Numbered from the stretch's first letter, positions 41,688 through 42,159 are shown. The stretch: 64,000 nt of DNA from Escherichia coli (GCF_003334405.1 NZ_QOWM01000004.1), one strand, 5' to 3'. The notes: generated by a model from the sequence alone, not told the origin. A program made the numbers and translations.

Positions 41688-41942
41688 TTATAAAGATTTG
41701 TAAATATAACCGTCTCCGGTATGTTGCCTGAGGCGGTTTTTTTGTCTCTAACGTGCGGAAAAATTTGTTCCTCTTCACATTTTTTGTACAACCGACATGC
41801 CCGTGTAGCTCACAAATATGACAGTGGCGTGAATTTTGCGCATTGACGGCAGTTATGATTCGCGGTATTGCTTAACTGTGATTGCACATTTAGTAATCAC
41901 TGTTTTCTTTTCCACCAGAAACCAGTATGAGGGAAACGAGGC

Positions 41943-42110
41943 ATGAAGAGACAAAAACGAGATCGCCTGGAACGGGCACATCAACGTGGTTATCAGGCCG
42001 GCATCGCCGGACGCTCAAAAGAAATGTGTCCCTATCAGACGCTGAATCAAAGGTCACAATGGCTGGGAGGCTGGCGAGAAGCCATGGCGGACAGGGTAGT
42101 AATGGCCTGA
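41943..42110 (+). CDS. rmf: Ribosome modulation factor
   Basis: 55-aa ORF (MKRQKRDRLERAHQRGYQAGIAGRSKEMCPYQTLNQRSQWLGGWREAMADRVVMA) with GAGG RBS; absent from the ORF track because it is under 60 aa. Confidence 0.95.
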   Translation: MKRQKRDRLERAHQRGYQAGIAGRSKEMCPYQTLNQRSQWLGGWREAMADRVVMA

Positions 42111-42122
42111 TTCTGTCTCTTT

Positions 42123-42159
42123 AAAAAGAAACCTCCGCATTGCGGAGGTTTCGCCTTTT
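42123..42159. terminator. Hairpin terminator between convergent rmf and fabA
   Basis: Stem cctccgc/gcggagg followed by tttcgcctttt, with an A-rich run upstream. Confidence 0.7.

What the first reader, a model, noticed from the sequence alone, without database searches (positions are those of the whole stretch)
41688..42124. rmf (55 aa) is invisible to the ORF track and sits behind a 255-bp leader; a 65-aa alternative-frame ORF overlaps it
The ORF track lists only a 65-aa ORF (41927-42124) with no recognisable product. The real gene is the 55-aa ribosome modulation factor at 41943-42110 in another frame, with a GAGG RBS 5 nt upstream and a hairpin terminator just downstream. The long upstream region (41688-41942) is non-coding and fits the known long, regulated rmf leader. 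It is a reminder that proteins under 60 aa are systematically missed here.
Basis: partly seen in the sequence, partly recalled or inferred. Interest (0 to 1): 0.3.

Follow-up and report, generated by a model that had tools for sequence, protein, structure and literature searches.

The report
E. coli rmf gene, correctly spotted
This is the well-known E. coli gene for the 55-residue ribosome modulation factor, hidden only by a 60-residue ORF cut-off; the 255 bases upstream are mostly the neighbour's terminator and the promoter, and the true mRNA leader is about 65 bases.

Summary
The main identification holds. Window 41943-42110 (+) encodes Rmf. It is 55/55 identical to the Rmf chain in solved hibernating-ribosome structures, passes the NCBIfam and Pfam Rmf models, and is annotated rmf between pqiC and fabA in complete E. 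coli genomes. The overlapping 65-aa ORF (41927-42124) is a by-product of the other frame. It matches no family. It is broken by stops or lacks a start in 46 of 73 distinct orthologous sequences, and its substitution pattern equals that of the null third frame. The "255-bp leader" is wrong. That interval is the whole pqiC-rmf spacer, made of:
- the pqiC intrinsic terminator (41708-41743);
- about 100 bp of promoter-upstream DNA;
- a sigma-70 promoter (TTGACG, 17 bp, TATTGC);
- a published TSS at 41878 (65-nt UTR; another paper says -58).

The mRNA starts with a hairpin (41878-41900) that has compensatory changes across Enterobacterales. A nearly invariant stem-loop follows and holds both SD candidates and the AUG. 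Published mutagenesis, and conservation measured here, point to the distal GAGG ("SD1") as the working one. The downstream hairpin is a bidirectional rmf/fabA terminator with mapped 3' ends. All of this is already known; interest is low.

The parts
41124..41687 (+). pqiC coding sequence (upstream neighbour; its stop codon defines the start of the spacer)
   Evidence: NCBIfam NF033620 pqiC, 285.5 bits against a cutoff of 200. Annotated pqiC in RefSeq.
41708..41743 (+). pqiC (pqiABC) intrinsic terminator: a 13-pair interrupted stem at 41708-41738 running into a run of 7 T (41737-41743)
   Evidence: Terminator scan. Fold -17.7 kcal/mol, z = -4.16, 0 of 200 shuffles fold as well. The GCGG-T-run part is conserved in orthologs. 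No Term-seq 3' end for it was found in the held supplement text.
41744..41842 (+). Promoter-upstream regulatory DNA, with conserved blocks at 41773-41792 and from 41806 onward
   Evidence: Conservation profile over 59 Enterobacteriaceae sequences. PMC6134199 uses the whole 256-bp spacer as the 'rmf promoter' probe, which is bound by many transcription factors. Individual binding sites were not assigned here.
41843..41871 (+). Sigma-70 type core promoter: -35 TTGACG (41843-41848), 17-bp spacer, -10 TATTGC (41866-41871)
   Evidence: Read from the sequence. It lies within the -50..+1 promoter sequence listed for the rmf TSS in the Kim 2012 supplement. The geometry TTGA[CT]N, 17 bp, TAnnnn, about 6 nt, then hairpin start is found in 73 of 77 distinct orthologous upstream sequences. 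The simple consensus scan did not call it, because the -10 lacks the final T.
41878..41942 (+). rmf 5' UTR, 65 nt (TSS G41878; an alternative published value of -58 would be 41885)
   Evidence: Kim 2012 PLoS Genet supplementary TSS table: NC_000913.2 position 1014873, 493 reads, UTR 65. PMC6134199 states -58.
41878..41900 (+). 5'-terminal hairpin of the rmf mRNA (8 pairs, 7-nt loop): GTGATTGC-ACATTTA-GTAATCAC
   Evidence: 96.6% of cells paired over 56 distinct sequences. Three pairs show changes on both sides (26 cells; 0 of 500 shuffles reach this). Pairing drops to 41-66% when the partners are slid. RNAalifold predicts the same helix. G-U pairs are frequent, so the constraint is on the sense RNA. 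PMC6060826, citing Aiso 2005, attributes the long rmf mRNA half-life to a 5'-UTR hairpin.
41901..41943 (+). Translation-initiation stem-loop holding SD1 (GAGGG 41929-41933, partly in an internal loop or bulge), SD2 (GAGG 41938-41941, in duplex) and the A of the AUG
   Evidence: The MFE fold and the RNAalifold consensus agree. 8 of its 13 pairs never vary, so covariation is uninformative. The sequence is nearly invariant. PMC7177335 describes nucleotides -41 to -1 as a stem-loop with SD1 in the bulged region and SD2 in duplex, and as the target of spermidine.
41943..42110 (+). rmf coding sequence: 55 codons plus stop, ribosome modulation factor
   Evidence: 55/55 identical to PDB 6h4n chain v. 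NF011162, 92.1 bits against a cutoff of 40. PF04957, E = 1.9e-22. Annotated rmf. Third-position-biased substitutions 367/245/1124.
41927..42124 (+). 65-aa alternative-frame ORF: a non-coding by-product, not a gene
   Evidence: No family hit. Open in only 27 of 73 distinct orthologous sequences. Synonymous/non-synonymous changed codons 190/1223, the same as the null frame at 181/1232. No purine-rich SD before its ATG.
42128..42159 (.). Bidirectional intrinsic terminator shared by rmf (+) and fabA (-): 11-bp stem 42128-42152, T-run 42156-42159 on the + strand and 42127-42123 on the - strand
   Evidence: Terminator scan on both strands and folds. Term-seq 3' ends at MG1655 1015927 (+) = window 42155 and 1015897 (-) = window 42125 (Adams 2021 supplement).
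42180..42698 (-). fabA coding sequence (convergent downstream neighbour)
   Evidence: RefSeq annotation mapped from L001. Conserved downstream on the opposite strand in 73 of 81 fetched loci.

Best explanation
The locus is the single-gene rmf transcription unit of Escherichia coli.

Shown here or in cited data:
- The pqiABC operon ends at an intrinsic terminator about 20-56 bp into the spacer.
- rmf is transcribed from its own sigma-70 promoter (TTGACG, 17 bp, TATTGC), starting at G41878. This gives a 65-nt 5' UTR, the 168-nt coding sequence and a 3' end at about 42155. The 3' end lies after a hairpin that also terminates the convergent fabA.
- The 55-aa frame is the one under purifying selection. 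Its product is identical to the Rmf seen bound to hibernating E. coli ribosomes.

Inferred from the anatomy, with support from the literature:
- The mRNA begins with an 8-bp hairpin that is maintained by compensatory substitutions. A 5'-terminal stem of this kind protects an mRNA from 5'-end-dependent decay. This fits the reported half-life of tens of minutes to hours in stationary phase.
- The rest of the UTR folds into a stem-loop that sequesters the proximal GAGG and the AUG, and places the distal GAGG in a bulge about 10 nt from the AUG. Translation is therefore intrinsically poor. It is tuned by ligands such as spermidine that alter the bulged region.
- Transcription is switched on at entry to stationary phase by ppGpp, cAMP-CRP and several other transcription factors that bind the roughly 130 bp upstream of the promoter. 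This explains why the spacer's length and parts of its sequence are conserved.

The Rmf protein then binds the 30S subunit near the anti-SD region and drives 70S dimerisation into 90S and then 100S particles (established literature; not tested here).
For: - Identity: sequence, NCBIfam, PDB, Pfam; 5426 of 5426 complete E. coli genomes; RefSeq annotation.
- Frame. The Rmf frame is intact in all orthologs. Differences by codon position are 367/245/1124. Synonymous/non-synonymous changed codons are 852/526, against 190/1223 for the alternative frame and 181/1232 for the third frame.
- Own promoter and short UTR: TSS-seq, UTR 65 nt, 493 reads; single RpoD promoter at -58; rmf is a single-gene unit; -35/-10/+1 geometry in 73 of 77 orthologs.
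- pqiC terminator.
- 5' hairpin: covariation; literature on stability.
- SD/AUG stem-loop and the two SDs: (NMR and mutagenesis as reported in PMC7177335).
- 3' ends.
- Synteny and spacer: (pqiC upstream in 79 of the 81 fetched loci; spacer median 256 bp).
Against: - The two published TSS positions differ by 7 nt (-65 against -58). If -58 were right, the 5' arm of the hairpin would not be transcribed.
- The primary papers for the TSS by primer extension, the CRP sites and the mRNA half-life (Izutsu 2001, Shimada 2013, Aiso 2005, Terui 2010) were not available. Those points rest on secondary citation.
- The initiation stem-loop is not thermodynamically exceptional on its own (z = -0.15 for 41885-41960) and has no covariation.
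- No sense-strand Term-seq 3' end after pqiC was found in the held supplement text. Some read-through from pqiABC into rmf is therefore not excluded.
Confidence: 0.93

Rival explanations
1. The whole 255-bp interval is a transcribed, regulated leader of rmf. This could arise from a far-upstream promoter or from read-through of pqiABC.
For: The spacer's length is strikingly constant: median 256 bp in 79 loci. Parts of it are conserved. No Term-seq 3' end after pqiC was found in the held text.
Against: TSS-seq puts the start 65 nt before the ATG with 493 reads, and lists no other rmf TSS in the passage retrieved. PMC6134199 states a single RpoD promoter at -58 and treats the spacer as promoter DNA bound by transcription factors, with rmf as a single-gene unit. 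A strong terminator hairpin plus a run of 7 T sits at 41708-41743. No Rfam leader family matches. Conservation is lowest in the terminator-proximal part and peaks around the -35 element and in the 65-nt UTR.
Confidence: 0.04
2. The 65-aa ORF (41927-42124) is translated, either as a real protein or as a regulatory out-of-frame upstream start that competes with the rmf AUG.
For: Its ATG sits 16 nt upstream of the rmf ATG and is present in 31 of 35 distinct upstream sequences. The ORF is open in E. coli, E. albertii and some others. It has been deposited as a protein in a few records.
Against: No family match. Internal stops or no start in 46 of 73 distinct orthologous sequences, including Citrobacter and Enterobacter. 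Its substitution pattern is indistinguishable from the null frame. No SD-like sequence precedes its ATG. The conservation of that ATG is explained by its overlap with SD1 (TGAGGG) and by pairing in the stem-loop. Where the ATG is lost, GAGG is retained. The databank entries are automatic calls, one merely named by position.
Confidence: 0.03
3. The inverted repeat 41878-41900 acts at the DNA level as an operator for a dimeric regulator overlapping +1, rather than (or as well as) an RNA hairpin.
For: It is a near-perfect palindrome positioned at +1 to +23, where repressors commonly bind. PMC6134199 reports many transcription factors binding the probe.
Against: The helix tolerates and often uses G-U pairs (for example 46 of 56 at columns 16/28, 11 at 15/29, 6 at 13/31). 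These would be A-C mismatches in a DNA palindrome read on the other strand. Half-site sequences change in a compensatory way instead of being fixed, while the loop sequence varies freely. That is the signature of RNA pairing, not of protein-DNA recognition.
Confidence: 0.08

Closest known systems
Ribosome modulation factor Rmf of Escherichia coli K-12 (b0953; Pfam PF04957; NCBIfam NF011162; PDB 6H4N chain v, 4V8G)
   Same: The 55-aa sequence is identical. The neighbours are the same (pqiC upstream, convergent fabA downstream). The DNA is 100% identical to K-12-derived genomes over 651 bp.
   Different: Nothing; it is the same gene.
5'-terminal stabilising stem-loops of long-lived enterobacterial mRNAs (the ompA 5' UTR type; comparison from general knowledge)
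   Same: The hairpin begins at the mapped +1. It is maintained by compensatory changes. The mRNA is reported to be unusually stable.
   Different: The effect of this particular helix on decay was not tested here, and the primary paper (Aiso 2005) could not be read. One published TSS (-58) would place the 5' arm outside the transcript.
Polyamine-modulon mRNAs with a distant SD sequence (oppA, fecI, fis, rpoN, rpoE, stpA, rmf and others; PMC7177335)
   Same: The distal GAGG lies about 10-11 nt from the AUG in a bulged region. The proximal GAGG and the AUG are in duplex, as that paper describes for rmf itself.
   Different: None for E. coli. In more distant Enterobacterales (Pectobacterium, Dickeya, Pantoea, Erwinia) the proximal GAGG is lost while the distal one stays.
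Rfam 'rmf RNA motif' upstream of rmf in Pseudomonas (recalled from memory as RF01755; its presence in the searched library was not checked by name)
   Same: Both are structured 5' UTRs in front of rmf genes.
   Different: No match to any such family in 41500-42400, even at E <= 10. The enterobacterial UTR is a different, uncurated structure.

Membership tests
Ribosome modulation factor (PF04957 / NF011162) | Sequence matches the family profile above the curated threshold over its full length | tested here: met
   NF011162 equivalog: 92.1 bits against a cutoff of 40, profile positions 1-47 of 47. PF04957: 79.5 bits, E = 1.9e-22, model positions 1-52 of 53.
Ribosome modulation factor (PF04957 / NF011162) | The protein is the one physically found on hibernating ribosomes | tested here: met
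   55/55 identity to the chains named 'Ribosome modulation factor' in 6h4n, 6h58, 9iot and 4v8g.
Ribosome modulation factor (PF04957 / NF011162) | Reading frame under purifying selection and intact in orthologs | tested here: met
   78 of 80 loci have exactly 55 codons. Variable sites per codon position are 23/19/50 of 55. Synonymous/non-synonymous changed codons are 852/526, against about 185/1230 in the other two frames.
Ribosome modulation factor (PF04957 / NF011162) | Conserved enterobacterial gene order pqiC - rmf - fabA (convergent) | tested here: met
   pqiC is upstream on the same strand in 79 of the 81 fetched loci. fabA is downstream on the opposite strand in 73 of 81. RefSeq annotation agrees.
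Ribosome modulation factor (PF04957 / NF011162) | Binds 30S and causes 70S dimerisation in stationary phase | not testable with these tools
   Rests on published work for the identical protein (PMC10746276, PMC6134199).
Intrinsic (Rho-independent) terminator, bidirectional (42128-42159) | GC-rich stem-loop followed by a U-run, with RNA 3' ends mapped at it on both strands | tested here: met
   11-bp stem with 7 GC pairs on both strands. z = -4.1 and -5.0. Term-seq 3' ends at window 42155 (+) and 42125 (-). The + strand U-run is interrupted (GCCTTTTG), and the + strand read count is about 80-fold lower than on the - strand.
Curated rmf leader RNA (Rfam 'rmf RNA motif') | Covariance-model match upstream of rmf | tested here: not met
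   No rmf-named family among the 15 matches at E <= 10. Nothing reaches any family's gathering score.
5'-terminal stabilising mRNA hairpin | Helix starts at or within a couple of nucleotides of the transcript's 5' end | tested here: inconclusive
   Met if the TSS is 41878 (Kim 2012 supplement; geometry). Not met if the TSS is 41885 (PMC6134199). Covariation in the 5' arm favours 41878.
5'-terminal stabilising mRNA hairpin | Helix maintained by selection at the RNA level | tested here: met
   3 of 8 pairs have double changes (26 cells; 0 of 500 shuffles reach this). 96.6% of cells paired, against 41-66% when slid. G-U pairs are used.
5'-terminal stabilising mRNA hairpin | Removing the helix shortens the mRNA half-life | not testable with these tools
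   Only a secondary citation of Aiso 2005 in PMC6060826. The primary paper is not held.
Polyamine modulon, distant-SD class | The functional SD is unusually far from the AUG and lies in a bulged region of a stem | tested here: met
   GAGG at 41929-41932 leaves 10 nt before the AUG. In the MFE and consensus folds, A41930 and G41931 are unpaired between two helices. This matches the description in PMC7177335.
Polyamine modulon, distant-SD class | Translation stimulated by polyamines | not testable with these tools
   Reported for rmf in PMC7177335, citing Terui 2010.

The most novel reading that the evidence does not exclude
Two features are not excluded as undescribed layers of rmf control. The first is the near-invariant out-of-frame AUG at 41927, 16 nt upstream of the rmf AUG and embedded in SD1. 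The second is the Term-seq 3' end 44 nt into the coding sequence (window 41987). Together they could mean a decoy start that diverts ribosomes from the rmf frame, or a roughly 110-nt 5'-derived RNA (41878-41987) with a function of its own. The evidence here neither supports nor excludes either. The AUG's conservation is already explained by SD1 and by pairing, and the internal 3' end could be a decay intermediate.
Probability: 0.04. Interest if true: 0.35.

Novelty: already known. Interest (0 to 1): 0.08.

Why it matters
For biology it matters little: rmf, its promoter, its stable mRNA and its polyamine-sensitive initiation region are textbook-level E. coli knowledge. The value is methodological.

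1. A 60-aa ORF cut-off hides a real, highly expressed 55-aa gene and shows a longer wrong-frame ORF in its place. The same mistake exists in deposited genome records, one of which even names the wrong-frame product "ribosome modulation factor".
2. An intergenic distance should not be read as a leader length. Here 255 bp breaks down into a terminator, promoter DNA and a 65-nt UTR.
3. As a small by-product, covariation in the 5' arm of the hairpin supports the -65 TSS over the -58 value quoted elsewhere.

Tried and rejected
- **Rfam.** A permissive Rfam scan of 41500-42400 gave only sub-threshold hits driven by the two terminator hairpins (Phe_leader, rnk leaders, GlmZ and others). I rejected these as chance.
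- **Promoter scan.** The simple sigma-70 scan found no promoter in 41500-42400. The real -10 (TATTGC) lacks the final T the scan requires, so this negative result is a limit of the scan.
- **Primary papers.** Shimada 2013 (PMC3650541), Aiso 2005 (PMC1064039) and Thomason 2015 (PMC4288677) are not held. One literature search failed on syntax and one on queueing.
- **CRP site.** I looked by eye for a canonical TGTGA-N6-TCACA site in the conserved block 41806-41850 and in the 41877-41900 repeat. None has the right spacing, so I assigned no CRP site.
- **Klebsiella TSS.** I looked for the Klebsiella rmf TSS in the Kim 2012 supplement. Only the ortholog table was in the held (truncated) text.
- **pqiC 3' end.** I looked for a sense-strand Term-seq 3' end after pqiC. 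None is in the held text.
- **Initiation stem-loop.** Thermodynamic significance is absent (z = -0.15) and covariation is uninformative because the sequence is invariant. Its reality therefore rests on conservation and on the published NMR work.

Full report
**Observation**

At the default 60-aa threshold, the only ORF overlapping 41688-42124 is 41927-42124 (+), 65 aa. Lowering the threshold to 20 aa reveals a 55-aa ORF at 41943-42110 in a different frame. The upstream gene's stop codon ends at 41687, so the intergenic interval is 255 bp. GAGG lies at 41938-41941, and a GC-rich hairpin lies at 42128-42152.

**Identity of the 55-aa ORF**

- Its product is MKRQKRDRLERAHQRGYQAGIAGRSKEMCPYQTLNQRSQWLGGWREAMADRVVMA.
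- It is identical over all 55 residues to the chains named "Ribosome modulation factor" in the hibernating-ribosome structures 6H4N, 6H58, 9IOT and 4V8G.
- It scores 92.1 bits against the NCBIfam equivalog NF011162 (cutoff 40) and 79.5 bits against Pfam PF04957.
- The 651-bp stretch around it matches all 5426 complete E. coli genomes searched. In RefSeq it is annotated rmf, between pqiC and the convergent fabA.

This is E. coli rmf.

**Which frame is real**

I fetched 80 orthologous loci from one genome per species across Enterobacterales.

- The Rmf frame is intact in all of them, and 78 have exactly 55 codons.
- Differences from the window sequence fall 367/245/1124 on codon positions 1/2/3.
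- Changed codons are 852 synonymous to 526 non-synonymous in the rmf frame. The 65-aa frame gives 190/1223, indistinguishable from the third, null frame at 181/1232.
- The 65-aa frame has an internal stop in 39, and no start in 7, of 73 distinct sequences. This includes close relatives such as Citrobacter and Enterobacter.
- The 65-aa product matches no NCBIfam family, and its ATG has no SD-like sequence before it.

The 65-aa ORF is therefore a by-product of the other frame. Its exact product has nonetheless been deposited from a few E. coli genomes, once under the name "ribosome modulation factor" (ACT70914.1). Real annotation pipelines have made the same error as the ORF track.

**The 255 bp are not a leader**

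Several lines break the interval into parts.

1. A strong terminator-like hairpin at 41708-41738 runs into seven T's (41737-41743), just after pqiC. It folds at -17.7 kcal/mol with z = -4.2.
2. Yoshida et al. 2018 (PMC6134199) use the 256-bp pqiC-rmf spacer as the rmf promoter probe. They state that a single RpoD promoter lies 58 bp upstream of the start codon, and that rmf is a single-gene transcription unit.
3. The genome-wide TSS table of Kim et al. 2012 (PLoS Genet, supplement) lists one rmf TSS at NC_000913.2:1014873, with 493 reads and a 5' UTR of 65 nt. Its -50..+1 sequence is identical to window 41828-41878, which places +1 at G41878.
4. The sequence offers TTGACG (41843-48), a 17-bp spacer, TATTGC (41866-71) and 6 nt before G41878. 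The pattern TTGA[CT]N, 17 bp, TAnnnn, about 6 nt, then hairpin start recurs in 73 of 77 distinct orthologous upstream sequences.
5. A permissive Rfam scan finds no leader family. The Pseudomonas "rmf RNA motif", which I recall from memory, is a different element.

The transcribed leader is therefore 58-65 nt. The remaining roughly 190 bp are the neighbour's terminator plus promoter DNA.

That DNA is clearly constrained. The spacer length has a median of 256 bp over 79 loci, even where PqiC has diverged to about 60-70% identity. Conserved blocks lie at 41773-41792 and 41806-41850. The literature attributes this to regulation by ppGpp, cAMP-CRP, ArcA, McbR, RcdA, SdiA, SlyA and others. I did not assign individual binding sites.

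**Anatomy of the real UTR: the 5' hairpin**

The transcript starting at 41878 begins with an 8-bp hairpin, GUGAUUGC-ACAUUUA-GUAAUCAC (41878-41900).

- Over 56 distinct sequences, 96.6% of cells are paired.
- Three of the eight pairs show changes on both sides: A-U to G-C at columns 13/31 in 22-23 sequences, and U-A to C-G at 14/30 and 15/29.
- The count of doubly changed cells is 26, and 0 of 500 shuffles reach it. Pairing falls to 41-66% when the partners are slid.
- RNAalifold independently predicts the same helix.
- Frequent G-U pairs mean the constraint acts on the sense RNA rather than on a DNA palindrome.

Covariation involving the 5' arm (41878-41885) also argues that these bases are transcribed, which favours the -65 TSS over -58. 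A review citing Aiso et al. 2005 attributes the exceptional half-life of rmf mRNA (24 min rising to 120 min) to a 5'-UTR hairpin (PMC6060826). The primary paper was not available.

**Anatomy of the real UTR: the initiation stem-loop**

The remainder, 41901-41943, is almost invariant across the order. In both the single-sequence and consensus folds it forms a stem-loop. UGUUUU pairs with GAGGCA, which covers the proximal GAGG and the A of the AUG. UUUCC pairs with GGAAA. Part of the distal GAGGG is left unpaired. Because the sequence does not vary, covariation says nothing for or against this fold, and its energy alone is unremarkable (z = -0.15).

The fold matches PMC7177335, which describes nucleotides -41 to -1 as a stem-loop studied by NMR. 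In that paper SD1, about 11 nt upstream, sits in a bulged-out region, and SD2, about 2 nt upstream, sits in duplex. Moving SD1 closer raised RMF and reduced polyamine stimulation, and eliminating SD2 raised RMF further.

In line with this, a GAGG at the distal position is present in 34 of 35 distinct upstream sequences. The single exception is the Erwinia group, where my assumed start is the second of two adjacent ATGs. The proximal GAGG is present in only 26 of 35, and is lost in Pectobacterium, Dickeya, Pantoea and Erwinia.

**3' end**

The 11-bp hairpin at 42128-42152 scores as a terminator on both strands (z = -4.1 and -5.0). Term-seq data (Adams et al. 2021, eLife, supplement) place an rmf primary 3' end at MG1655 1015927, which is window 42155. 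They place a much stronger minus-strand 3' end at 1015897, window 42125, at the end of fabA. The listed flanking sequences match window 42105-42165 exactly.

**Verdict**

The identification of rmf, the dismissal of the 65-aa ORF and the terminator are all correct. The "255-bp leader" and the choice of RBS are not. Nothing here is new biology.

The most novel reading left open concerns two features: the conserved out-of-frame AUG at 41927, and the ORF-internal Term-seq 3' end at window 41987. Either might reflect an extra regulatory layer. I give that a few per cent, because the AUG's conservation is explained by SD1 and pairing, and the 3' end may be a decay intermediate.

Length thresholds hide small genes and promote wrong-frame ORFs. 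To this I add that intergenic length is not leader length.

Noticed in passing
window 41927-42124 (+): The exact 65-aa wrong-frame product is in public databases from a few E. coli genomes. ACT70914.1 (O157:H7 str. TW14359) is even named 'ribosome modulation factor'. EFJ93212.1, EFU50567.1 and EGB79092.1 are 'hypothetical protein'. These are annotation errors of the same kind as in the ORF track.
   Followed up: partly
window 41987 (+) = MG1655 1015759: Term-seq (Adams 2021, supplementary file 3) lists an ORF-internal 3' end 44 nt into the rmf coding sequence (average read count about 1109). With the TSS at 41878 this would be a roughly 110-nt RNA. It could be a decay intermediate, a pause site or a discrete species.
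   Followed up: no
window 41504 (-) = MG1655 1015276: The same paper's supplementary file 2 lists a minus-strand 3' end antisense inside pqiC (ymbA), with a high score and low p-value. I did not read that table's column headings. The origin of this antisense transcript was not examined; it could be read-through past the fabA terminator across rmf, or a promoter in the spacer.
   Followed up: no
window 41878 vs 41885: Two published rmf start sites differ by 7 nt: a UTR of 65 nt (Kim 2012 TSS table) against '-58' (Yoshida 2018 text). Covariation in the hairpin's 5' arm and the -10 +7 geometry favour 41878.
   Followed up: yes
window 41773-41792 and 41806-41850: Conserved non-coding blocks lie upstream of and around the -35 element: TTTTTTGTACAA, and TAGCTCACAAATATGACAGTGGCGTGAATTTTGCGCATTGACGG. 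They are presumably transcription-factor sites. No canonical CRP spacing is visible by eye, and no sites were assigned.
   Followed up: partly
window 41688-41942 and loci L002-L081: The pqiC-rmf spacer length is held close to 255 bp across Enterobacteriaceae (median 256 over all 79 loci). It grows to about 260-415 bp in Pectobacterium, Dickeya, Erwinia and Pantoea.
   Followed up: partly
window 39427-41127 (+) and 42180-42896 (-): The mechanical ORF list over-extends neighbouring genes at their 5' ends. pqiB appears as 566 aa from a TTG, against 546 aa annotated. fabA appears as 238 aa from a GTG, against 172 aa annotated. pqiB and pqiC overlap by 4 nt (41124-41127).
   Followed up: no
loci L061, L077, L078, L080 (Erwinia group), about -25 to +6 around the rmf start: These genomes have two adjacent in-frame ATGs (GGCATGATGAAG) and a diverged UTR (GAAGAGGGGATTACAGGC). 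The proximal GAGG and the upstream out-of-frame ATG are lost, while a distal GAGG is kept.
   Followed up: partly
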